A DNA stretch of 64,000 bases from Escherichia phage vB_EcoM_DE16, in the sequence record OP595145.1, one strand, 5' to 3'. The notes under the pieces were generated by a model. That model did no database searches and had not been told where the DNA came from. It worked only from the letters and a program-made list of their open reading frames with translations. A program made the translations under genes and the position numbers. Below are positions 4,543 through 62,174 of this stretch, piece by piece. Numbering within the stretch: the stretch's first letter is position 1; each line of letters opens with the position of its first letter.

Positions 4543-5030
4543 TGGAAAGTGAGATCTTACCAGGTGACGATACAGATTGGGAAACCATTATCAAAAAGAT
4601 GATGGACCTTGAACAAGTTCAAATCGAAGCTGGTTTTTTAACAAACAAAAGGCATCCTGAATCAGATCTCACTATTCCTGCAATAGCAGCTATTCAACAA
4701 TATGGTAATGAAACAAATAACATACCTGCTCGTCCTTTTATAACAGATGGTGCTGTTATCTCACAGAACAATATCGCTAAAAAGATGAAGCAGGTTTTTG
4801 CAAATTACCTAATGAACAATGTTGGGTTGGCTGTTTTTGAGCCTATAGCGAGAGCCTCTAGAGAAGGAATAGCTCAAGCGATTGCAATGCAACGTTATCG
4901 TCCTTTATCTCCTGTGACAATTAAGATACGACAAGATAAAGGCAACTATTCTAATCATATCTTAATAGATACGGCACACATGATAAATGCAATCGAAACA
5001 AAAATCACAAAAAGCAAGTCTAAAAAATAA
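4542..5030 (+). CDS. hypothetical protein (possible head closure / neck protein)
   Basis: 162 aa; start overlaps upstream stop (ATGA). Confidence 0.4.
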   Translation: MESEILPGDDTDWETIIKKMMDLEQVQIEAGFLTNKRHPESDLTIPAIAAIQQYGNETNNIPARPFITDGAVISQNNIAKKMKQVFANYLMNNVGLAVFEPIARASREGIAQAIAMQRYRPLSPVTIKIRQDKGNYSNHILIDTAHMINAIETKITKSKSKK

Positions 5031-5031
5031 C

Positions 5032-5060
5032 TTGCATAAACTTTGTTTTTGATGTATACT
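5032..5060 (+). promoter_or_regulatory. sigma70-like promoter, TTGCAT-N17-TATACT
   Basis: Near-consensus hexamers with 17-nt spacer, followed by RBS AAGGAG and a GTG start at 5076. Confidence 0.45.
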
Positions 5061-5075
5061 AAAAAGGAGATACAA

Positions 5076-5492
5076 GTGTTACTAGATCAATTTACTCTCC
5101 TTGATCTAACTGAATACCAAGGTCGTAGACGAGTCTACAAAGAGGCCGTTGGTTCAGTTATTGCTAACTTAGAAAGTAGTGTAGAATATGAACCATTTAC
5201 TATTGAAGCGGCAAGCTTACAACCGATATCTGGTAAAACACTGAATGCACTACCCGAAGGTTACAGATCTAAGGCTCAATATAGTTTCTGGACTAAAACA
5301 GAAATGAAGGGGTTACAACAAGGAACAGAACAGTTATCAGATCAAATATTGATAGATGGTAAATGGTATTCTGTTTATTCCCTTAAAGATTGGACCAGAA
5401 CATCTTTCTTAGTCCATCATCACTGTGTTGCGATATTAGACGATCAAAACAACTCCTGGTCTTATGGAACAGAAGGAGGAAACTTTGGCTAA
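5076..5492 (+). CDS. hypothetical protein (neck / tail completion region)
   Basis: Track ORF begins at 5043; GTG at 5076 is preferred because AAGGAG lies 7 nt upstream and the promoter -10 overlaps 5055-5060. Confidence 0.45.
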   Translation: MLLDQFTLLDLTEYQGRRRVYKEAVGSVIANLESSVEYEPFTIEAASLQPISGKTLNALPEGYRSKAQYSFWTKTEMKGLQQGTEQLSDQILIDGKWYSVYSLKDWTRTSFLVHHHCVAILDDQNNSWSYGTEGGNFG

Positions 5493-6123
5493 TATTTACC
5501 AACAAATAGAAGCATACGAAAATGCCATCTACTTAAATATAGGTGGCTTCCTTCAAGAATTAGTGGGGTTGCCAGTCTATGTTATGGATAAGCCATTCAT
5601 TAAACCGGATACTCCTTACCTAGCACTACGTATTATCACTTCCAGCGATTCTGGAGGTTGGTCTTACCGAAGCTCTATTCAAAATGATATGTATTCCTAC
5701 GAGATGGATAATACCTACGAGATTGAACTTGTAGCCTATCGTGGAAGACCTACCACTTTGATGAGCTATGTTCTGGCTGCTCTCCGTGGTGCAGAGGAAT
5801 TAAAATACAAACATCTCTATTCTAAAGGTCTTGGTTTTTTAGGAGCCTCCAATATAGCTCAAGCCAATACAATTGTAGACGGAGATAAGACTGAATTAAG
5901 AGCGCGTATGGTTATGACGTTCAACACTCGTATGAGTATTGAAGATATTGCTACTACACCAATAGAAGCAATCAACATGCACATCCGTTCATTCAGAGAT
6001 AGTTACAATGATCCTATCCCTTTAGATTTAATTCTAAACAGGGTTTATGCAATTACTTTGGTTCCAGGCGAATACTCGTCAGTTAATCAAAATGGATCAT
6101 TATTTAACAACCCTACCGAATAA
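5464..6123 (+). CDS. hypothetical protein (possible tail terminator / sheath initiator)
   Basis: 219 aa; alternative TTG start at 5485 is preceded by GGAGG; overlaps upstream gene end. Confidence 0.4.
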   Translation: MEQKEETLANIYQQIEAYENAIYLNIGGFLQELVGLPVYVMDKPFIKPDTPYLALRIITSSDSGGWSYRSSIQNDMYSYEMDNTYEIELVAYRGRPTTLMSYVLAALRGAEELKYKHLYSKGLGFLGASNIAQANTIVDGDKTELRARMVMTFNTRMSIEDIATTPIEAINMHIRSFRDSYNDPIPLDLILNRVYAITLVPGEYSSVNQNGSLFNNPTE

Positions 6124-50846: not shown

Positions 50847-51043
50847 TATTCCTCCTCCTCGTTGAAGTCGATATCTGCAAGTAGTTGGAATTTACGGAAG
50901 TTACGACAACCTTCATAAATATAACAATCACGACAAACTGCTAGAACACTTGGGGGATATATGCCTCCCATCGGTGCGAATCGTTTTTCGTCATCATAAC
51001 GGACACCAATGTCTTCATCAATTATATAGATACGGATTCTCAT
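50846..51043 (-). CDS. hypothetical small cysteine-containing protein
   Basis: 65 aa; start overlaps TelA-like stop. Confidence 0.35.
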   Translation of the reverse strand: MRIRIYIIDEDIGVRYDDEKRFAPMGGIYPPSVLAVCRDCYIYEGCRNFRKFQLLADIDFNEEEE

Positions 51044-52152
51044 TTACCAAGCCCTCGTTTCACAGCAGCTACCATCCCGTCTTCCAGAGATTGAACTTCA
51101 TTAATATAATCAACACGAGCAGCACGGGCTTCCGTATTGATGCGGTTAGTTTCTTCCAACATCTTAACCAAGTTTTCCTGATCGTGACGCAGAGTTTCAA
51201 TATCCAACACTTGACGGTTAGCCAGTGCTGCTGCTTCGATCTGATTCTGTGTGGCAAGATCGCTACCCAGTTTAATTGCCAGGTTAAATTCGTCAAGAAC
51301 GTTATTCTGCGTCTCTGCTGCTTTCATTTGACGTAAGCTCTCGATATACATGGAGAAGTTAGCAGAGTAAGCAGGAATAACATTATTTACTATGTTACGC
51401 GCAGATCGCATTAAGCTTGCAGAAACTTTTTGCATACCTTGTACACGCGGTCCCATTTGGACACACAGTAGGCGCAATGCTTTTAAATCTGCAATACGAA
51501 TCTCCAGAAGATCCAAAGTATCTCGGATCACTTGTCGCTGTTCTACTGCATCTTCTGGAAGAGCAGCCAAAGCTTGTTCTTCTTTTTCATAGGTTGCTGT
51601 TAGAAGCTGCATATCTCGGTTCAAACTTGCAGCATATTGTCCAATAGCTTGATGTAGCTTTTCAAGATATACCAAGGAATCTTCTTCTTTGCGAATATCC
51701 ATTTGAAGGTTCTTTACCAACTCTTCAATACGGTTATTAACATTATCAAACTCCCCAAACAGGTCTTCTTTCATACCCATAACTTTTTTAATGAGTTTAG
51801 TAATACCCTTGCTTTGTTTAATAGAGTTTGGATCAAGTTGTTTTGCCTGTTTAATCAAAGCTGTGAGTCGTTCACTCATCTGATCACCTTGATTACTACG
51901 TTGATGTTTTAATACCTCGGCATTCAAGGAACGCAAGGTTGTTCCTGCCTCTGCCCCGATTTCTTCGATTTCTTGCCTGGTCATAGAAGGCAAAGCTGGT
52001 ACTTCTTGCGGTGCGGCTGGTGCATAAACAGGACTGGCATCTAACACGCTTGGAGCGAATACAGATTTACTGGCATCTGTTGTTGCAGCAAATACGCTCA
52101 TTTCAGGCTTCTTCTGACCACCAGTAGCTGCTTTTAAAAATGGACTTGTCAT
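51040..52152 (-). CDS. TelA-like (toxic anion resistance) protein, putative
   Basis: 370 aa, all-helical with A/P/S-rich N-terminus; assignment rests on size, helical character and Ter gene context, no sharp motif. Confidence 0.4.
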   Translation of the reverse strand: MTSPFLKAATGGQKKPEMSVFAATTDASKSVFAPSVLDASPVYAPAAPQEVPALPSMTRQEIEEIGAEAGTTLRSLNAEVLKHQRSNQGDQMSERLTALIKQAKQLDPNSIKQSKGITKLIKKVMGMKEDLFGEFDNVNNRIEELVKNLQMDIRKEEDSLVYLEKLHQAIGQYAASLNRDMQLLTATYEKEEQALAALPEDAVEQRQVIRDTLDLLEIRIADLKALRLLCVQMGPRVQGMQKVSASLMRSARNIVNNVIPAYSANFSMYIESLRQMKAAETQNNVLDEFNLAIKLGSDLATQNQIEAAALANRQVLDIETLRHDQENLVKMLEETNRINTEARAARVDYINEVQSLEDGMVAAVKRGLGK

Positions 52153-52739
52153 TCTTCATTCTCCTCTTCTGCATCTCTTATATATGGTGAAACACCGTAC
52201 TCTTTAGCTACTTTAACCCAATCGTCCCATTTATACAACCATAATTTTCCTTCTGTCCCTTCTTTATCTGATTTCAACCACATATTAGGTTGCTTACCTG
52301 GGTACATGCGATTAGGTTTACGATTATAACCTCTAACACATCTTGTCGCAAACCTATCTACCAGAACAAGAACATATTTATATTCGTGGTTCAACGGCTC
52401 TTTGGAAGTGGCTTTAGGATTAGCCCCTAATTCTGCTGCCAGTTTTTGCCAATGAGCACCGTGCCTACTAAACTTACCCATACAACCATCAATAGCATGA
52501 GCAATTTCGTGCTTCATTGTATCTACGATCATATCTCTTGTGGAGTTCTTATGCAAGTGCCAATTTACAACAACAATTTTATCTCGGTAGTTGCACCAAC
52601 CGAAAGAGTTATTCACTTTGTTTCTAACACAAGCTTTATATCCTGCTTCACGTAACATGTTGTAGTAAACAGGAAAATCTTCTTTTATTTCCTGCATCAC
52701 TTCCCACCACAAGAGTTGCAAGTCTCTCTCGGTATGCAT
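52149..52739 (-). CDS. SprT-like zinc metallopeptidase domain protein
   Basis: 196 aa; HEIAH (HExxH) motif. Confidence 0.4.
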   Translation of the reverse strand: MHTERDLQLLWWEVMQEIKEDFPVYYNMLREAGYKACVRNKVNNSFGWCNYRDKIVVVNWHLHKNSTRDMIVDTMKHEIAHAIDGCMGKFSRHGAHWQKLAAELGANPKATSKEPLNHEYKYVLVLVDRFATRCVRGYNRKPNRMYPGKQPNMWLKSDKEGTEGKLWLYKWDDWVKVAKEYGVSPYIRDAEEENEE

Positions 52740-52742
52740 AAC

Positions 52743-53336
52743 TTACACCTTAAAAGCGAAATGTGTGGTCGTGGCTTCAAAATCAGGGCCAGATAAACTT
52801 GCACTGAAATCTGAAATATTTGTAATTAAAAAGCTTTTATGCATACCTAACACAGCCACGCTTTCAATATCTTCTACTAACATTTCAATCATGTTAGAAA
52901 CATGGCTGAACGTATAGTTTTGTTTTTTGATGGTGTAGAAAGAAAGACTCCCACCTGCTGTATAAGATACCTCTTCAAAATCTTTAATCGTATATTGTGT
53001 GCCATCAGTAAAGAAAATGGTAGCTTTATTAGTAGCACGTTTCTTGTTTTTTGGTCCTTTTTTACGTTTACTGCGAGTAGGCAAACCATTTGGAAATACC
53101 GTAGCTACAAATTCTTCAGGAGAAACCTCCTTACCGAAATCATAACCGTAAGAAACAGCGTCTATAAACTCGTCGTCTTCATTTTTAAAATAATGAAAAT
53201 AGGGCCAATTTGAGAGATTATCGAGCATCTTGTGCTCATCCACAGCAGAGAACGTATCCCTCAAAGCACGTGTGATTTGCAAAGCATTAGGCAAACTTTT
53301 AACACCTGTAATGGAAGTACGAATAGAAATTGTCAT
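52743..53336 (-). CDS. hypothetical protein
   Basis: 197 aa; basic KRKKGPKNKKR patch. Confidence 0.4.
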   Translation of the reverse strand: MTISIRTSITGVKSLPNALQITRALRDTFSAVDEHKMLDNLSNWPYFHYFKNEDDEFIDAVSYGYDFGKEVSPEEFVATVFPNGLPTRSKRKKGPKNKKRATNKATIFFTDGTQYTIKDFEEVSYTAGGSLSFYTIKKQNYTFSHVSNMIEMLVEDIESVAVLGMHKSFLITNISDFSASLSGPDFEATTTHFAFKV

Positions 53337-53350
53337 TGTTTTTCTCCTTA

Positions 53351-53788
53351 TTAACGTCGCTTGCTACGAGATGAACTCTTTTTACTTAAAGGGCTATTGT
53401 AAGATTTACGAGTTGTATAGCTACTATTTGTTTTAAAAGTTTGTCTCGGCTTTTCATAAGTTTTTATCTCTTGTTTAGGCTTACCATAAAAATTAGTTTT
53501 CGGTTTAGGTGTATTATAATGCTTATTAATAATCGTTCTGTTATCGTTATAATCTCCACTGCTACGATTACTACCGCCACTCATCATATGCCCTAACAAC
53601 ATACCTGTAGCAAACTCACCAACACCGCTACTACTAGAACCGCCACCATTGTTGATAATAGTTGTATCTCCGTCAGATCCTTGTTGAGCGTATTGTTGAG
53701 GAGGTTGTTGGTATTGTGCAGGATTTGTTTCATCCTCGCAAGCTGTTAAAAAGATACAACCAATTAAAATCAGGGCTAGTTTTTTCAT
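53351..53788 (-). CDS. lipoprotein (signal peptidase II substrate), low-complexity
   Basis: Start re-assigned to ATG (MKKLALILIGCIFLTAC) after GAGGAAAG; lipobox LTAC; Q/G/S-rich mature region. Confidence 0.5.
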   Translation of the reverse strand: MKKLALILIGCIFLTACEDETNPAQYQQPPQQYAQQGSDGDTTIINNGGGSSSSGVGEFATGMLLGHMMSGGSNRSSGDYNDNRTIINKHYNTPKPKTNFYGKPKQEIKTYEKPRQTFKTNSSYTTRKSYNSPLSKKSSSRSKRR

Positions 53789-53877
53789 ATTTGCTTTCCT
53801 CGTTTTGGCTATTAATACATCTGTGTTTGAAATCTCCAGAGAAGCAATAAAGTTGCTCTCCATCTCGGTATAAACTC

Positions 53878-53906
53878 ACTTTACTGCCGTTGATTATGCT
53901 TGTCAA
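53878..53906 (-). promoter_or_regulatory. sigma70-like promoter, TTGACA-N17-TAAAGT
   Basis: Consensus -35 with 17-nt spacer upstream of the lipoprotein gene. Confidence 0.35.
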
Positions 53907-53971
53907 TACAAAAATTACAACAAACAACCCTATTGCAAAACAGATATTTTCAAACACAACCAACAAGTATT

Positions 53972-54322
53972 TCATTTTAAAAATACCTCATCATCAGTTT
54001 CATTATCCCAGAAGAACAAATCCCAACCACTTGGATCATTCCATTTGGCTGCTGGAGAAGTCCATATTTGCTCAATATCAATATTCAAAACTTCACCGTT
54101 TCGTTTTGAAACAGCTTTAGTTAATTCCCAACGGGATACAGGCTCCACTTCCCCTGAACCACTCCCACAACAAGCTACAACATTAGGAGGCAAATTAATT
54201 GGATCTTTGGTCACAATCATAACGCTTACCCCAGGGTAAACTTTTGAAAGATAATCTGAAATATAATCCACATCACCAGATAAATCCCAAACAAGTTCTT
54301 GAATTTCATCAAAATTATTCAT
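53972..54322 (-). CDS. hypothetical protein
   Basis: 116 aa; RBS GGAGG. Confidence 0.4.
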   Translation of the reverse strand: MNNFDEIQELVWDLSGDVDYISDYLSKVYPGVSVMIVTKDPINLPPNVVACCGSGSGEVEPVSRWELTKAVSKRNGEVLNIDIEQIWTSPAAKWNDPSGWDLFFWDNETDDEVFLK

Positions 54323-54364
54323 AAGTCTCTCCTATAAAATAGCCTCCCGAAGGAGGCTCATCTA

Positions 54365-55339
54365 TTAAACAGCAGCTTCTTCTTTTTCAGGGAAGATAAA
54401 GCTTGCAATAACACCAAGAGCTAATGTGCCTAGAACAATCATCAGACTTACGTTAGGGGAAATATCATGCGGGAGGAATGACCACTTGGCATGAAGTGTT
54501 TCACCGAACGGGTGATACATAAGTTTAGCACCAACAAACACCAGAACCACAGCAACAGCTTTCTCTAAGTGAACCAGATATTTCACAGCTACACTTAACA
54601 CAAAGAAAAGTGCACGTAAACCAAGAACAGCCATCAGCATTGCAGAATAAACTAGCAGAGGTTCTTGTGTCACCCCGATCACAGCCGGAACTGAATCAAA
54701 AGAGAAGACAATATCTGTAAGCTCAATAACAAACACACAAAGAAGAGCAGGAGTTGCATATTTAATACCATTCTTAATGGTAATGAACTTTTCACCATCT
54801 AGTGCATTGTGCACAGGCAGAACTTTACCTACTAAACGAACAGCCCAATGCTTAGAGTAATCAATATCCTCTTCTTCGTCACCACCTTTGATGATAGCCA
54901 CGGCAGACCAAGCTACAATCAAACCGAACAACACTTGGACCGACCAATGAAGGTTAAACAAAGCGGTCCCTGCTGCAACAAAAATACCTCGGAAGACAAT
55001 GGCTCCTGCAATCCCCCAAAGTAAAATCTTATGTTGGAGATGTGTGCTCTTAATTCCAAAGCTTGCAAAAATTGCCATGAACACCATCAGGTTATCTACA
55101 GAAAGACTCTTTTCCAACACATAACCACTTAGGAAAAGCGCGGCAAACTCTTTACCATGTTCTACCCAAATGAATGCGTAATATCCTAAAGCTAAAGCAA
55201 TCCAAAAAACAGACCAAAGCAAAGCAGATTTAATTCCAATTTCTTTATTCTCTTTATGACCAAAGAAATCGATACCAATAGACAATGCCAAAATACCAAC
55301 TAAAACAACTACATCAATAATTGGGAAACCGAGTTGCAT
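54365..55339 (-). CDS. terC: TerC-family integral membrane protein
   Basis: 324 aa, multiple TM helices; conserved YVLEKSLSVDN and FSFDSVPAV motifs. Confidence 0.7.
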   Translation of the reverse strand: MQLGFPIIDVVVLVGILALSIGIDFFGHKENKEIGIKSALLWSVFWIALALGYYAFIWVEHGKEFAALFLSGYVLEKSLSVDNLMVFMAIFASFGIKSTHLQHKILLWGIAGAIVFRGIFVAAGTALFNLHWSVQVLFGLIVAWSAVAIIKGGDEEEDIDYSKHWAVRLVGKVLPVHNALDGEKFITIKNGIKYATPALLCVFVIELTDIVFSFDSVPAVIGVTQEPLLVYSAMLMAVLGLRALFFVLSVAVKYLVHLEKAVAVVLVFVGAKLMYHPFGETLHAKWSFLPHDISPNVSLMIVLGTLALGVIASFIFPEKEEAAV

Positions 55340-55652: not shown

Positions 55653-56126
55653 TTAAAGTTTATAAATAGTCACATCGTGACCTGTTTTTACTAAAGTTTC
55701 TTCAATCATCACTTGGATGATAGCCCAATTACCTCCGGCATGTCCCGCTCCAATCATAGGTAAACCGATCTTACATTTTTGGTCACGGAGAAGCAAATCA
55801 TTAGCCATAGCTATTAGTGCATCGTATAGGGCATCATAGTCCAACTGACGACCTTTAGCATTATATCCGTAACGGTATTGCCCGTATAGATTATATACCA
55901 AAGGGTCTGATTGTTCGTCTGGCACCCCTAAACTAAAAGAACCTAACTTACTTTGATCACCAGCCATTGTGTCTAAATCTGCCGCATATGCATAAGGGAA
56001 TGCTCGTTTAATTTGCGGAGCAATTCCTGCCCCCATATTACACATACAATTGCAACAATGAGCAATAACAGTTACTTCACCTGCTTTAGCGGCATCAATA
56101 AGATTACCTGTTTTCATTTTAAGCAT
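55653..56126 (-). CDS. macro domain protein (ADP-ribose binding / hydrolase-like)
   Basis: 157 aa; N-terminal NLIDAAKAGEVTVIAHCCNCMCNMGAGIA and later LPMIGAGHAGGN follow the macro-domain glycine-rich pattern. Confidence 0.5.
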   Translation of the reverse strand: MLKMKTGNLIDAAKAGEVTVIAHCCNCMCNMGAGIAPQIKRAFPYAYAADLDTMAGDQSKLGSFSLGVPDEQSDPLVYNLYGQYRYGYNAKGRQLDYDALYDALIAMANDLLLRDQKCKIGLPMIGAGHAGGNWAIIQVMIEETLVKTGHDVTIYKL

Positions 56127-56138
56127 TTTAGCTCCTTA

Positions 56139-56966
56139 TTACAGAATGTGTTGTTTTGTGTAACGATCCAAGAATTCAAAGTTTTCAGCATACTTTGAAA
56201 TTCGGTTGTAACCTTCTCCCAAACATCCGAAGAAAAGTTGCTCTACATAGTAGTGTGGCAATTGGCTAAGAATGATTTTGAAGTCTTCGTGATTTTGGCC
56301 CATAAGATACTTAATAGGACGAACAAGACACTGTGCATCACGTTCTTCATTAATCATTTTAACAAACGCTTCTGGTGTATTAATATAATTAAAATTCAGT
56401 TTAGCTTCGGTATCTGCTTGATTACCTTCATATTTTGCAAAATACAAGAAGTAAACATCATTTTTAACTTGATTTTCATCAAGGATCTCAATCAGTTTGT
56501 CTTCATGAGTTCCAGTGATATTTACATCATCAATAAACACAAGCTTCTTATCACCCCAGAATTCTTTGTTGCAGTAGAATGTATCCCCATCGATAAGTTT
56601 CTTACGACTAGCTTTATCCAAGAAACCATAATCGTTGATATAGCTAACTTTACGATGAATAATATCCAGTTCTGCTGAACGACCTTGATCATATTGTGAT
56701 TGCAACATATTAAAGTAATTAATAAAATGATCTGTCATCATTGTTGCAGCATTATGCACATGGTTGTAAGGAGAAGGAATGATAACAAATTGTTCCCCAA
56801 TATGTTTCATTGCCACTTGAGCAAAAAACTGAAGTGCCAATTCTTTACCCATACGACGCGCAGCCTGGTTACTACCAAATTTCAATTTTGAATAATCTTG
56901 GATATCAAAAGTAGCAGTTTCCAGGTCATCAAATTTATTTGCAAAAATTTGAGTTTGATTACGCAT
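56139..56966 (-). CDS. phosphoribosyltransferase-like protein
   Basis: 275 aa; PRPP-binding-like loop KLVFIDDVNITGTH. Confidence 0.45.
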   Translation of the reverse strand: MRNQTQIFANKFDDLETATFDIQDYSKLKFGSNQAARRMGKELALQFFAQVAMKHIGEQFVIIPSPYNHVHNAATMMTDHFINYFNMLQSQYDQGRSAELDIIHRKVSYINDYGFLDKASRKKLIDGDTFYCNKEFWGDKKLVFIDDVNITGTHEDKLIEILDENQVKNDVYFLYFAKYEGNQADTEAKLNFNYINTPEAFVKMINEERDAQCLVRPIKYLMGQNHEDFKIILSQLPHYYVEQLFFGCLGEGYNRISKYAENFEFLDRYTKQHIL

Positions 56967-57636
56967 TTACAATTTCTCCTCTTTTAAGTTTCTCTAGTAA
57001 GTCGTTAGGGTTCTTAATATGACAGAAGTTAATCCCTATGTCAACACATTTACCATCAAATTCTTCGCTGTCCCCAACATGTAAAATCTCTTCAGCCTTC
57101 AAAGGAATGCTTGAATATGTGGCGGTCCTAACAAAGAATCTAGGATCTGGTTTACACAACAGATGTTCGTCTGAAAAATGCATAAATTCAAAACAATTCC
57201 AACTGTCGAACATACAAGCACGACGCAAAATATCCCCAGATATAAAATTAGTATTGCTTTTAATACTAAGATCATATTTACCAGACAAGTATAGCAAACA
57301 AACTGGCAAATCTAAAGCAATATGTGGAGGAAATTTAAGAAACCATTGCTCACACTCAAAACGCATTTGTGCAGATTCTACAGGGGTTAAACCTATCTTT
57401 CTTCCCAACATATTCCATGCATATGCTACACCTTCTGCACACCCATTTAGTGCAGCATTATCCATAATTTCTTTGGCATCTTTATATGCTTCTTTTGCCG
57501 CACGTTCAGACATTCTACCATATGTAGCAATAGTGTGCGTACGTGCATCTGCATAGTTTTGATTGGCAGAAATAAGAGTATTCCATACATCAAAAGAGAT
57601 ATGTTTTATTGTCATACTAGGCCCACCATGCATCAA
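56959..57636 (-). CDS. HAD-superfamily hydrolase-like protein
   Basis: 225 aa; motif I-like ISFDVWNTL and motif IV-like HVGDSEEFD. Confidence 0.4.
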   Translation of the reverse strand: MMHGGPSMTIKHISFDVWNTLISANQNYADARTHTIATYGRMSERAAKEAYKDAKEIMDNAALNGCAEGVAYAWNMLGRKIGLTPVESAQMRFECEQWFLKFPPHIALDLPVCLLYLSGKYDLSIKSNTNFISGDILRRACMFDSWNCFEFMHFSDEHLLCKPDPRFFVRTATYSSIPLKAEEILHVGDSEEFDGKCVDIGINFCHIKNPNDLLEKLKRGEIVNA

Positions 57637-60792: not shown

Positions 60793-60820
60793 ATCAAAAA
60801 AGGCGCAAAGTGCGCCTTTA
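60793..60820 (-). terminator. rho-independent terminator between the 60825 gene and nrdD
   Basis: GGCGCA/TGCGCC hairpin followed on the minus strand by TTTTTT. Confidence 0.6.
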
Positions 60821-60824
60821 AGTT

Positions 60825-62174
60825 TTATCGTTTGGAGAGGAATTGTCTTCCCATGATCTTACCATTCTTTACAGCGGTCCCATCATGTCCATTATAATCC
60901 CAAGTTCCGTCGATATTACGCAAGAAACTATCACGAACAGTGTAGGCTTTACCGTTCTCTACTTTACTTTCTTCCACAATGATCGCCATAACAAGCTTAT
61001 TTTCAATTTCGGTAGTAACCGATTCTTTGATACCCTCTGTAACTTCACGATCATATTGGATATAAACTCGCTCCTCAGTCACTTGCACGTCTACCACATT
61101 TTTAAATGTGTAGGTCTGTTGTGTAGTGTAGAGGACACGAACGACACTCTTCTTACCTACTGGCGGCTTCTGACGACGTTTGCGGTAACGTGGAGACGGG
61201 TTAAGTTTAATATAGCCTACAATGTCTGATCCATCTCCAGAGTGGCTCCAATAAAGTGTCTCTGCCAACAAACCTTTTCCTTGGTCCCCATTTCGAAAAA
61301 GAACATCAACAGGACCATCACAAGGGCGTTTACCTCCGATGTGGGCTTGGTATTTTGCTGTTCTTGGGAGAACAAAATATTCTTCAATCTGCCATTCACT
61401 ATCGTATTTCTCCCACTCAAAGTGGTTGGCTTTGCATACTTCTAAAACACCATTTTTGTAACGGACTTGAACAAAGTCCTCACAAGGTTGAATACCTGTA
61501 TTAGGAATATAGGTAGGCTCTGTGTCTTCTGGTTCAAAAGTCTCTTTTTGTTGTTCCACATCTTCCACTTTTCTTACATGCTTAGTATAAAACATATCTT
61601 TAAACTCCTGTGCTTCAACCTCAACTGCAAATTCATGTTCTCTGACAGCCGGAGGCACAAGGCTTCCACACTCAAGATGTAGAGCATCCAGACCTGCCAT
61701 TTTATCGTAAAAGATAACTTTTCGATACTTCTTACCGTCTTCTGGAATAGCAGGGTCTACTCGTTTAAGACGGGAAGCATCGCTTTTAGTCCAAAAACTC
61801 TTCCCTGTTGTATTATTGAAAGTAGTAATCATTTCTCCAATTTCTTCTTCAGAAAGGTTACTAGTGTCTGTGTAAACATCTTCAATTTTTAGCATTTTAG
61901 TTTTCTTAAAAATTAAATCTAGCATTGCATCTCCTGTAAAACGTAGTTCATTATCTCCTACTGTCGGCTCTCCAGTAAATTCATCGGTCCCGACTGTGTG
62001 ACAGATGTATGGAAAATTTGTGCAACCGTGTAAAAGAGCATATTGTCCTGTAAGTTTAGGATCTGTCTCTTTAGTCCAACCATATGCAATCTCAATAGCT
62101 TTGCAAAGCTTATCGAACAAGCCCCGATTGTTTGCCGCTGTTACCAAATCTTGCTTATGTGCATATACATTCAT
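60825..62174 (-). CDS. hypothetical protein
   Basis: 449 aa ORF; no motif recognised. Confidence 0.45.
   Translation of the reverse strand: MNVYAHKQDLVTAANNRGLFDKLCKAIEIAYGWTKETDPKLTGQYALLHGCTNFPYICHTVGTDEFTGEPTVGDNELRFTGDAMLDLIFKKTKMLKIEDVYTDTSNLSEEEIGEMITTFNNTTGKSFWTKSDASRLKRVDPAIPEDGKKYRKVIFYDKMAGLDALHLECGSLVPPAVREHEFAVEVEAQEFKDMFYTKHVRKVEDVEQQKETFEPEDTEPTYIPNTGIQPCEDFVQVRYKNGVLEVCKANHFEWEKYDSEWQIEEYFVLPRTAKYQAHIGGKRPCDGPVDVLFRNGDQGKGLLAETLYWSHSGDGSDIVGYIKLNPSPRYRKRRQKPPVGKKSVVRVLYTTQQTYTFKNVVDVQVTEERVYIQYDREVTEGIKESVTTEIENKLVMAIIVEESKVENGKAYTVRDSFLRNIDGTWDYNGHDGTAVKNGKIMGRQFLSKR

What the first reader, a model, noticed from the sequence alone, without database searches (positions are those of the whole stretch)
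55653..56126. Macro domain protein: possible reversal of ADP-ribosylation-based defence
The 157-aa ORF shows the glycine-rich macro-domain pattern. Macro domains remove ADP-ribose from proteins or DNA; the bacterial DarG antitoxin uses one to reverse DarT modification of ssDNA. A phage-encoded macro domain adjacent to a PRTase/HAD pair could be an anti-defence enzyme or part of a ribose-phosphate metabolite pathway.
Basis: partly seen in the sequence, partly recalled or inferred. Interest (0 to 1): 0.6.

Follow-up and report, generated by a model that had tools for sequence, protein, structure and literature searches.

The report
Phage macrodomain that removes ADP-ribose
This 157-residue phage gene really does encode a macrodomain enzyme, but it belongs to a widespread phage family whose members were recently shown to undo ADP-ribose-based bacterial defences, so it is a new member of a known kind and not a new discovery.

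Summary
The ORF is real: 55653-56126, minus strand, 157 aa, with an AAGGAG ribosome-binding site. It is a macrodomain: Pfam is marginal (23 bits, cutoff 22), but PDB sequence hits (SCO6735 1e-12, DarG 9e-7, TARG1 3.5e-6), phrog_335 (1e-55) and a pLDDT 94 model matching TARG1, DarG and Poa1p settle it.

The window is a Phapecoctavirus (98-99% to ZCKP1 and ESCO5). The protein is 37% identical to T4 Tk.4 (AdfM), which protects T4 from DarTG2. It is 41% identical to Vibrio phage Gary Adpp, an ADP-ribose-1''-phosphate phosphatase that lets the NARP1 pathway beat aRES. All three share one active site, with Gln in place of the DarG/TARG1 lysine, as in SCO6735, which cleaves thymidine-linked ADP-ribose on DNA.

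The close relative ESCO5 has no Adps or Namat but carries an AdfN-like NADAR. Removal of DarT2-type ADP-ribose from phage DNA is therefore the likeliest role (about 0.5). The ADPR-1''P phosphatase role is the main rival.

The PRTase/HAD neighbours are a separately conserved pair that occurs without a macrodomain in other phage lineages, so a shared pathway is not supported.

Verdict: new member of a known kind, low to moderate interest.

The parts
55653..56126 (-). Macrodomain gene, 157 aa, member of the phage Tk.4(AdfM)/Adpp family (phrog_335)
   Evidence: ORF. Pfam, PHROG, PDB, PADLOC and NCBIfam hits. AF2 model pLDDT 94.3. Foldseek hits to TARG1, DarG, Poa1p and SCO6735. 37% identity to T4 Tk.4 and 41% to Vibrio phage Gary Adpp.
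56132..56137 (-). Shine-Dalgarno sequence AAGGAG, 5 nt upstream of the ATG
   Evidence: Read directly from the sequence (plus strand ctcctt at 56132-56137).
56019..56051 (-). Codons for N26 to A36 (N-C-M-C-N-M-G-A-G-I-A): first ADP-ribose-binding loop, with the conserved Asn
   Evidence: N26, G34 and A36 are invariant in 56 homologues and in 87 family members. N26 aligns with N23 of PhiKZ AdfM, whose N23A mutant loses activity.
55878..55880 (-). Codon CAA for Gln83, at the catalytic position (motif N79-L-Y-G-Q83-Y)
   Evidence: Aligns with SCO6735 Gln85, DarG Lys80 and TARG1 Lys84. Invariant in the 56 homologues and the majority residue in 97-98% of 87 family members. SCO6735 Q85A is inactive (PMC9411070).
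55731..55754 (-). Codons for I125 to G132 (I-G-A-G-H-A-G-G): second glycine-rich diphosphate-binding loop. H129 replaces a nearly invariant Leu.
   Evidence: G126 and G132 are invariant; G128, L129 and A130 are at least 90% conserved. H129 is seen only in the window sequence among the six PRTase/HAD-linked copies. Ala130 sits where TARG1 has the catalytic Asp125.

Best explanation
The gene encodes a stand-alone macrodomain hydrolase of the DarG/TARG1/SCO6735 ('ALC1-like') class. It belongs to the large phage family that contains T4 Tk.4 (AdfM) and Vibrio phage Gary Adpp.

Mechanism, inferred from homologues: the two glycine-rich loops and Asn26 hold ADP-ribose. The bond at C1'' of the distal ribose is then hydrolysed by the SCO6735-type mechanism, in which Gln83 positions the substrate and an activated water. 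Gln83 occupies the place of the Lys used by DarG and TARG1.

Most likely role in this phage, which appears to lack the NARP1 NAD+ rebuilding genes: it acts on phage DNA. It would remove the ADP-ribose that DarT2-type toxins of E. coli DarTG2 systems put on thymidines in single-stranded DNA, so replication can continue. That makes it an orphan-antitoxin-like counter-defence, an AdfM.

Shown here: the fold, family membership, active-site conservation, and absence of NARP1 in the near-identical relative ESCO5.
Inferred: the catalytic activity, the DNA substrate, and protection from DarTG2.
For: 1. Macro fold and class are established.
2. The protein is 37% identical (E 2e-21) to T4 Tk.4. Knocking out tk.4 sensitises T4 to DarTG2, and it was named AdfM (preprint 10.1101/2025.11.20.689424).
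3. The best PDB sequence match is SCO6735 (1.1e-12), which shares the Gln at the catalytic position and the GxAGG loop. SCO6735 cleaves thymidine-linked ADPr from DNA and protects against DarT (PMC9411070).
4. DarG profiles match over the macrodomain part only: PADLOC 1.6e-10, NCBIfam 4.5e-9.
5. A stand-alone phage macrodomain, PhiKZ AdfM, has been shown biochemically to erase DarT2 marks.
6. There is no Adps or Namat homologue anywhere in ESCO5 or in the window (best tblastn E 0.085). The alternative Adpp role therefore lacks its partner enzymes.
7. ESCO5 also carries a NADAR protein (PF08719, 1.8e-35). It is about 59% identical to that of Justusliebigvirus relatives. The NADAR of Bas60-62 neutralises DarT1 (PMC11825919). 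The lineage would thus hold a guanine eraser plus a thymine eraser, as T4 does with AdfN and AdfM.
8. The gene sits in the early/replication gene block, tightly packed on the same strand as the nrdDG, DNA polymerase and SSB genes.
Against: 1. No experiment exists on this protein or on any Stephanstirmvirinae macrodomain.
2. It is somewhat closer to Gary Adpp (41%, 108 bits, full length) than to T4 Tk.4 (37%, 72 bits over 124 residues). It also shares with Adpp and SCO6735 the longer loop after Gln83, which T4 Tk.4 lacks.
3. In an unbootstrapped NJ tree its clade lies nearer the NARP1-linked copies than T4 or rV5.
4. The T4 evidence is genetic only and comes from a preprint.
5. No residue was found that separates DNA-acting from ADPR-1''P-acting members.
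6. Absence of NARP1 was tested on the relative ESCO5, not on the unseen remainder of this phage's own genome.
7. H129 replaces a nearly invariant Leu next to the active site; the effect is unknown.
Confidence: 0.5

Rival explanations
1. It is an Adpp-type ADP-ribose-1''-phosphate phosphatase. RES-domain defence proteins (aRES) split NAD+ into nicotinamide and ADPR-1''P. The macrodomain removes the 1''-phosphate to give ADPR, which is then rebuilt into NAD+ or otherwise detoxified.
For: - Closest characterised relative by score: Vibrio phage Gary Adpp (KNV71_gp137), 41% identity over the full length, E 2e-35. Purified Adpp converts ADPR-1P to ADPR and is required for NARP1-AP to beat aRES.
- Family members lie within 6 kb of a Nampt-like gene in 33 of 80 IMG/VR loci and of a Prs-like gene in 28 of 80.
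- The nearest non-Stephanstirmvirinae homologue in the phage collection (Pseudomonas phage PPSC2, about 50%) and Vibrio phage Bennett lie next to or inside Prs and Nampt-like genes.
- aRES occurs in E. coli, Klebsiella and Enterobacter.
- Poa1p is a clear structural match.
Against: - No Adps or Namat in ESCO5 or in the window. ADPR alone does not restore NAD+, and the preprint shows all three genes are needed.
- Sequence matches to Poa1p are weak (E 0.0023), while SCO6735, DarG and TARG1 are much stronger.
- Most of the 2,983 phage records with a family member are T4-like or similar phages. T4 and rV5 show no NARP1 genes near the macrodomain gene.
Confidence: 0.25
2. It is a component of a metabolite pathway with its neighbours. 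The HAD phosphatase and PRTase_3 (with TerC and TelA) would make a Ter-type nucleoside-like compound, and the macrodomain would process a ribose-phosphate or ADP-ribose intermediate of that pathway.
For: - Tight same-strand packing: HAD overlaps PRTase_3 by 8 nt, and 12-nt gaps flank the macrodomain gene.
- The order HAD, PRTase_3, macro, small membrane protein, TerC is kept between Phapecoctavirus and Justusliebigvirus despite only about 49% macrodomain identity.
- Terminator-like hairpins bracket nrdD to terC as one possible transcription unit.
- PRTases, HAD enzymes, TerC and TelA are the parts of the Ter system as described by Aravind's group (PMC7824862).
- The family is often found next to other phosphoribosyltransferase-type genes.
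Against: - The HAD-PRTase_3 pair occurs in 156 phage records. In Xanthomonas XaC1, Rhizobium TM21B and Brevundimonas Gurke it has no macrodomain nearby.
- Only 5 of 80 macrodomain loci have the pair, all from related large myovirus contigs.
- T4, rV5 and Seunavirus homologues sit among unrelated genes.
- Conserved order within one subfamily is expected from common descent.
Confidence: 0.07
3. It serves the phage's own NAD+-consuming enzymes or reverses protein ADP-ribosylation. Examples: deacylating O-acetyl-ADP-ribose made by the phage Sir2, or removing ADP-ribose from proteins modified by host or phage ADP-ribosyltransferases.
For: - TARG1/OARD1 is the top structural match, and it deacylates O-acyl-ADPR and removes Glu-linked ADPr (established knowledge of TARG1).
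- SCO6735 also acts on auto-modified PARP1.
- ESCO5 encodes a Sir2-family protein (PF02146, 1.7e-20).
Against: - The Sir2 gene lies about 100 kb away and is not linked.
- The TARG1 catalytic Lys/Asp dyad is absent; the protein has Gln83 and Ala130.
- No phage homologue has been shown to act this way, whereas two anti-defence roles have been demonstrated in the family.
Confidence: 0.1
4. It acts mainly by binding rather than by catalysis: it sequesters an ADP-ribose-derived signal or blocks DarT by direct interaction.
For: Catalytically dead SCO6735 Q85A still inhibits DarT, more strongly than dead DarG or TARG1. Phage sponges for ADPR-derived Thoeris signals are known (established knowledge).
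Against: - Every residue needed for catalysis in SCO6735 and PhiKZ AdfM is conserved (H23, N26, Q83, both glycine loops).
- The DarT-binding C-terminal domain of DarG is absent; only profile positions 1-144 of 329 are matched.
Confidence: 0.05

Closest known systems
T4 Tk.4 = AdfM (anti-DarT factor macrodomain), preprint 10.1101/2025.11.20.689424
   Same: - Stand-alone phage macrodomain of about 155 aa in an E. coli myovirus.
- 37% identity, E 2e-21.
- Same H-x-x-N-C, G-x-G and N-L-Y-x-Q motifs, with Gln at the catalytic position.
- Both lie in phages without NARP1 that also carry a NADAR protein (AdfN).
   Different: - T4 Tk.4 lacks the 5-6 residue loop after the catalytic Gln and has G-I-G-K-G in place of G-H-A-G-G.
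- The genomic neighbourhood differs (tk to vs region).
- Protection from DarTG2 is shown genetically for T4 only.
Adpp of Vibrio phage Gary (NARP1-AP pathway), preprint 10.64898/2026.01.28.702374
   Same: Highest-scoring characterised relative: 41% identity over the full length, E 2e-35. It has the same active-site residues and the same long loop after Gln83.
   Different: Adpp is encoded between Adps and Namat and needs both to counter aRES. This phage lineage has neither gene.
SCO6735 of Streptomyces coelicolor (PDB 5E3B)
   Same: - Best solved-structure sequence match (1.1e-12).
- Same Gln in place of the catalytic Lys, and the same G-x-A-G-G-x-W loop.
- Stand-alone macrodomain that removes thymidine-linked ADPr from DNA.
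   Different: It is a bacterial chromosomal gene under a DNA-damage-type promoter, not a phage gene. Identity is about 30%.
DarG2 antitoxin macrodomain (T. aquaticus 5M31/5M3E, M. tuberculosis 5M3I)
   Same: Same fold and class (Foldseek 1.6e-10; phmmer 9e-7). DarG profiles match residues 1-156.
   Different: - No C-terminal DarT-binding domain.
- No adjacent darT.
- Gln83 where DarG has the catalytic Lys80.
- 36 bits against an equivalog cutoff of 250.
PhiKZ gp104 = AdfM of chimalliviruses (Cell Rep 2026, PMC13309987)
   Same: Stand-alone phage macrodomain. The conserved Asn (N23 there, N26 here) and the glycine loops are shared.
   Different: - Only about 17% identity in the alignment.
- PhiKZ AdfM keeps the DarG-type Lys (F-P-T-K motif), so it is a separate, DarG-like lineage.
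- It is imported into the phage nucleus.
Human TARG1/OARD1 and yeast Poa1p
   Same: TARG1 is the top structural neighbour (4.8e-12, TM 0.78-0.87) and Poa1p is also a clear one (1.3e-8). Both act at C1'' of ADP-ribose.
   Different: The TARG1 Lys84/Asp125 dyad is replaced by Gln83/Ala130. Poa1p sequence similarity is weak (E 0.0023).

Membership tests
Macrodomain superfamily (Pfam PF01661) | Three-layer alpha/beta/alpha macro fold | tested here: met
   AF2 model pLDDT 94.3, pTM 0.91. 224 PDB macrodomain-type matches at E<=0.001, led by TARG1, BT1257, DarG, Poa1p and SCO6735 with TM 0.74-0.87.
Macrodomain superfamily (Pfam PF01661) | Profile match above the curated threshold | tested here: met
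   23.0 bits against a cutoff of 22. This is marginal on its own, but it is backed by phmmer against PDB at 1.1e-12.
Macrodomain superfamily (Pfam PF01661) | ADP-ribose binding | not testable with these tools
   Binding loops N26..G32-A-G34 and G126-A-G-H-A-G-G132 are conserved.
ALC1-like class (TARG1 / DarG / SCO6735) | Closest sequence and structure neighbours are members of this class | tested here: met
ALC1-like class (TARG1 / DarG / SCO6735) | Catalytic Lys (TARG1 K84, DarG K80), or the SCO6735 variant Gln85, at the end of the central strand | tested here: met
   Gln83 aligns with SCO6735 Gln85. It is invariant in 56 homologues. This is the SCO6735 variant, not the Lys variant.
DarG antitoxin (NCBIfam NF048014 equivalog) | Full-length architecture: macrodomain plus C-terminal DarT-binding domain | tested here: not met
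   Only profile positions 2-147 of 338 are matched, at 36 bits against a cutoff of 250. PADLOC matches positions 1-144 of 329.
DarG antitoxin (NCBIfam NF048014 equivalog) | Encoded next to a darT toxin gene | tested here: not met
   The neighbours are PRTase_3, HAD, a 73-aa membrane protein and TerC. PADLOC gave no DarT hit among the neighbours it scanned (PRTase_3, HAD, the 201-aa ORF).
AdfM (phage anti-DarT factor macrodomain, T4 Tk.4 type) | Homology to T4 Tk.4 with a conserved active site | tested here: met
   37% identity, E 2e-21. Shared motifs. Same PHROG-level family (tk.4 annotations).
AdfM (phage anti-DarT factor macrodomain, T4 Tk.4 type) | Protects the phage from DarTG2 and removes DarT2 ADP-ribose from DNA | not testable with these tools
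   Needs plaque assays and an in vitro de-ADP-ribosylation assay.
Adpp / NARP1-AP | Homology to Vibrio phage Gary Adpp | tested here: met
   41% identity over the full length, E 2e-35.
Adpp / NARP1-AP | Encoded in or next to an operon with Adps (Prs-like) and Namat (Nampt-like) | tested here: not met
   No hit better than E 0.085 to Bennett or PPSC2 Adps/Namat proteins in the window or in the whole ESCO5 genome. None is annotated there.
Adpp / NARP1-AP | ADPR-1''-phosphate phosphatase activity | not testable with these tools
   Needs LC-MS with purified ADPR-1''P.
Ter stress-response system (Anantharaman, Iyer and Aravind 2012) | Macrodomain is a recurrent partner of the PRTase/HAD biosynthetic genes | tested here: not met
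   The HAD-PRTase_3 pair occurs without a macrodomain in three distant phage lineages. Only 5 of 80 macrodomain loci have the pair.

The most novel reading that the evidence does not exclude
The macrodomain, the PRTase_3/HAD pair and perhaps the 201-aa protein upstream together form an undescribed ADP-ribose or NAD+ salvage route that replaces NARP1 in Stephanstirmvirinae. The macrodomain would free ADP-ribose from DNA adducts or from ADPR-1''P, and a type I phosphoribosyltransferase, rather than Namat, would carry out the base-transfer step.

A milder version: the Tk.4/Adpp family is generally bifunctional, so a single enzyme disarms both DarTG2 and, where NARP1 is present, aRES. Neither source preprint notes this link.
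Probability: 0.08. Interest if true: 0.6.

Novelty: new member of a known kind. Interest (0 to 1): 0.27.

Why it matters
Phapecoctaviruses are used and studied as therapeutic E. coli and Klebsiella phages, so knowing which defences they can disarm helps predict host range.

This gene, together with the NADAR gene elsewhere in close relatives, suggests the lineage carries erasers for both kinds of DNA ADP-ribosylation (DarT1 on guanine, DarT2 on thymine), as T4 does.

A more general point came out of the comparison. The T4 anti-DarTG2 factor AdfM and the NARP1-associated phosphatase Adpp were described separately in 2025-2026. They are homologues, 35% identical with the same active site. The substrate range of this very common phage family (about 3,000 of 50,697 phage records) therefore deserves a direct side-by-side test.

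Tried and rejected
1. **NARP1 partner genes.** I searched for Adps and Namat with tblastn, using the Bennett and PPSC2 proteins against the window and the whole ESCO5 genome. Nothing scored better than E 0.085.

2. **Residues separating NARP1-linked from other family members.** A column-by-column comparison of 35 against 45 sequences found none in the active site. Isoelectric points also did not separate the groups.

4. **Genes next to PRTase_3 in other phages as NAD+ enzymes.** XaC1_252 has the size of Nampt but gave no tblastn match to the Bennett Nampt. The Rhizobium phage gene annotated 'NMN adenylyltransferase/NUDIX' is only 188 aa, too short for a bifunctional enzyme. Neither was scanned against a domain library, so there is no support for an NAD+ link.

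5. **Ter-system paper.** The original paper (PMC4104200) is not held in the library. I relied on the same group's summary in PMC7824862.

6. **Phylogeny.** I built only a neighbour-joining tree without bootstrap and treat it as indicative.

7. **Literature.** A search for work on Phapecoctavirus macrodomains found nothing specific.

Full report
**1. The observation**

An ORF of 157 codons runs on the minus strand from an ATG at 56126 to a stop at 55653. An AAGGAG ribosome-binding site lies 5 nt upstream of the ATG (sequence).

The Pfam Macro model matches only just above its threshold: 23.0 bits against 22, E 7.9e-5. Taken alone that would be weak. Other lines settle it:
- phrog_335 matches at 1e-55.
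- phmmer against the PDB finds the Streptomyces macrodomain SCO6735 (1.1e-12), Bacteroides BT1257 (1.7e-8), the Thermus aquaticus DarG macrodomain (9e-7) and human TARG1 (3.5e-6).
- DarG profiles of PADLOC (1.6e-10) and NCBIfam (4.5e-9) match the macrodomain part only.
- An AlphaFold2 model built on 56 homologues has pLDDT 94.3 and pTM 0.91.
- Foldseek places the model next to TARG1 (4.8e-12, TM 0.78/0.87), DarG (1.6e-10), Poa1p (1.3e-8) and SCO6735 (1.6e-8).

**2. Where the window comes from**

The region is 98-99% identical to phAPEC8-like phages of E. coli and Klebsiella: ZCKP1, nieznany and ESCO5, genus Phapecoctavirus, subfamily Stephanstirmvirinae.

The gene lies in a long minus-strand block of early, replication and nucleotide-metabolism genes. 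In transcription order these are:
- nrdD, nrdG, a small ORF and a 201-aa unknown;
- a HAD hydrolase and a ComF-like PRTase_3 (PF15610, 2.2e-41);
- the macrodomain and a 73-aa membrane protein;
- TerC (3e-40);
- further on, an SprT-like peptidase and TelA (3.1e-33).

Gaps around the macrodomain gene are 12 nt on each side. Terminator-like hairpins at 60819-60799 and 54358-54341 bracket nrdD to terC. That is a consensus match only.

**3. What is already known about such proteins**

The literature search changed the picture. Two separate functions have recently been shown for stand-alone phage macrodomains.

(a) AdfM, 'anti-DarT factor macrodomain'.
- PhiKZ gp104 removes DarT2 ADP-ribose from DNA in vitro, neutralises DarT2 toxicity and protects the phage.
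- In T4, a transposon screen found tk.4 as the single gene needed on a DarTG2 host, and a clean knockout became sensitive.

(b) Adpp.
- In Vibrio phage Gary a macrodomain is encoded between Adps and Namat. It converts ADPR-1''-phosphate, the product of the RES-domain defence aRES, to ADPR.
- The NARP1 pathway can then rebuild NAD+ from that ADPR. All three genes are required.

**4. Placing this protein**

Direct comparisons:
- 37% identity to T4 Tk.4 over 124 residues (72 bits, E 2e-21).
- 41% identity over the full length to Gary Adpp (108 bits, E 2e-35).
- Tk.4 and Adpp are themselves 35% identical.

So all three belong to one family. tblastn finds this family in 2,983 of 50,697 phage records, many of them annotated 'tk.4: phosphatase'.

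The family shares an active site. Across the 56 homologues and the 87 sequences, the residues H23, N26, G34, D50, T53, K60, G62, N79, Y81, Y97, G126 and W134 are invariant or at least 94% conserved. Q83 is invariant and 97-98%. G132 is invariant, but only 84% among the members without NARP1 genes nearby; rV5 has Leu there.

The key position is Gln83. It aligns with Lys80 of DarG and Lys84 of TARG1, and with Gln85 of SCO6735. SCO6735 lacks the Lys/Asp dyad, needs Gln85, and cleaves thymidine-linked ADP-ribose from DNA efficiently. PhiKZ AdfM, in contrast, keeps the DarG-type Lys and is only about 17% identical. It represents a second, independent recruitment of a macrodomain by phages.

**5. 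Which of the two known roles?**

Sequence cannot decide. No active-site column separates family members that lie next to NARP1 genes from those that do not, and overall charge does not either.

Points towards Adpp:
- The protein is slightly nearer to Adpp.
- It shares Adpp's longer loop after Gln83.
- In a rough neighbour-joining tree its clade sits nearer NARP1-linked copies than T4.

Points towards AdfM:
- The Adpp role needs Adps and Namat. Neither the window nor the complete genome of the near-identical ESCO5 contains a homologue (best E 0.085; annotation).
- ESCO5 does encode a NADAR protein (1.8e-35). It is identical in phAPEC8 and about 59% identical in Justusliebigvirus relatives.
- The NADAR of Bas60-62 was shown to neutralise DarT1.
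- T4 likewise pairs a NADAR (AdfN, guanine-ADPr) with Tk.4 (AdfM, thymine-ADPr).

On balance I favour an AdfM-type role, removal of DarT2 marks from phage ssDNA, at about 0.5. The Adpp-type phosphatase role gets about 0.25. The two are not exclusive: both reactions break a bond at C1'' of ADP-ribose in the same pocket, so the enzyme may well do both.

**6. The PRTase/HAD neighbours**

I tested it from both sides.

From the macrodomain side, 80 related IMG/VR loci were examined:
- Only 5 have PRTase_3 and HAD beside the macrodomain, all from related myovirus contigs (three of 146-153 kb, two shorter fragments).
- 33 have a Nampt-like gene and 28 a Prs-like gene within 6 kb.
- The loci are partly redundant, so these are counts of contigs, not of independent events.

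From the PRTase_3 side:
- The HAD-PRTase_3 pair occurs in 156 phage records.
- It is intact in Xanthomonas XaC1, Rhizobium TM21B and Brevundimonas Gurke with no macrodomain nearby.
- The macrodomain joins it only in Stephanstirmvirinae (Phapecoctavirus and Justusliebigvirus, for example bas62_0068).

The pair, with TerC and TelA, fits the 'Ter system' as summarised by Aravind's group, who noted that some phages carry it. A functional link to the macrodomain is therefore not supported, though conserved order within the subfamily keeps it from being excluded (0.07).

**7. The upstream 201-aa ORF**

**8. Comparison and membership**

- It is a macrodomain of the ALC1-like class, SCO6735 (Gln) variant.
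- It is not a DarG antitoxin: no C-terminal domain, no darT neighbour, no Lys80, and far below the equivalog cutoff.
- It is a homologue of both T4 AdfM and Gary Adpp.
- It fails the operon criterion for NARP1-AP.
- The functional criteria for AdfM and Adpp cannot be tested here.

**9. Novelty and score**

The kind of thing, an orphan antitoxin-like macrodomain that phages use against ADP-ribose-based immunity, is already described, and the family is very common. This particular protein and its subfamily are uncharacterised. The rating is therefore 'new member of a known kind', interest about 0.27.

Two small additions may be useful:
- The observation that AdfM(T4) and Adpp(Gary) are homologues with one active site. 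Neither source preprint mentions the other function.
- The lineage-specific H129 next to the catalytic pocket.

Noticed in passing
window 56139-57636 (minus strand): The HAD hydrolase (56959-57636) overlaps by 8 nt a ComF-like PRTase_3 (56139-56966; PF15610, 2.2e-41). This pair is conserved as a unit in 156 phage records, including Xanthomonas, Rhizobium, Brevundimonas and Caulobacter phages. Its substrate and product are unknown.
   Followed up: partly
window 51040-55339 (minus strand): Ter-system-like genes in a phage: TelA (51040-52152; PF05816, 3.1e-33), an SprT-like metallopeptidase (52149-52739; 4.2e-9) and TerC (54365-55339; PF03741, 3e-40). Pseudomonas phage PPSC2 also has TelA and TerC a few kb from its macrodomain.
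   Followed up: partly
[not shown]
   Followed up: partly
IMG/VR loci L008-L087; L003 (PPSC2); L005 (Bennett); L091 (Gary): Macrodomains of this family lie within 6 kb of a Nampt-like gene in 33 of 80 loci and of a Prs-like gene in 28 of 80. That matches the published NARP1-AP arrangement. T4 AdfM and Gary Adpp are 35% identical homologues, a link that neither source preprint mentions.
   Followed up: yes
window 55740-55742 (codon for His129): His replaces a Leu that is at least 90% conserved in the family (G-A-G-H-A-G-G against G-A-G-L-A-G-G). It is next to the position of the TARG1 catalytic Asp. It is seen only in the window sequence; the 91%-identical IMG/VR relative L008 does not have it.
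   Followed up: no
ESCO5 record NC_047776.2, 139336-139878 and 17518-18318 (outside the window): The close relative encodes a NADAR protein (PF08719, 1.8e-35; annotated 'GTP cyclohydrolase II') that is probably an AdfN-type anti-DarT1 factor. It also encodes a Sir2-family protein (PF02146, 1.7e-20).
   Followed up: partly
window 60799-60819 and 54341-54358: Strong terminator-like hairpins on the minus strand, each followed by a T-rich tail. They bracket the nrdD to terC block. A promoter-like site at 55415-55388 lies in the 79-nt gap before terC.
   Followed up: no
L092 (Escherichia phage JohannJBalmer, Bas62) 4833-5567: The Justusliebigvirus macrodomain gene bas62_0068 is annotated as 244 aa, with about 90 extra N-terminal residues. 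Only the last 152 or so align with the family. This is either a mis-called start or an added domain.
   Followed up: no
window 60825-62174 (minus strand): A 449-aa ORF just upstream of nrdD has no Pfam match, although the ESCO5 RefSeq record annotates it as 'ribonucleotide reductase'. The annotation looks doubtful.
   Followed up: no
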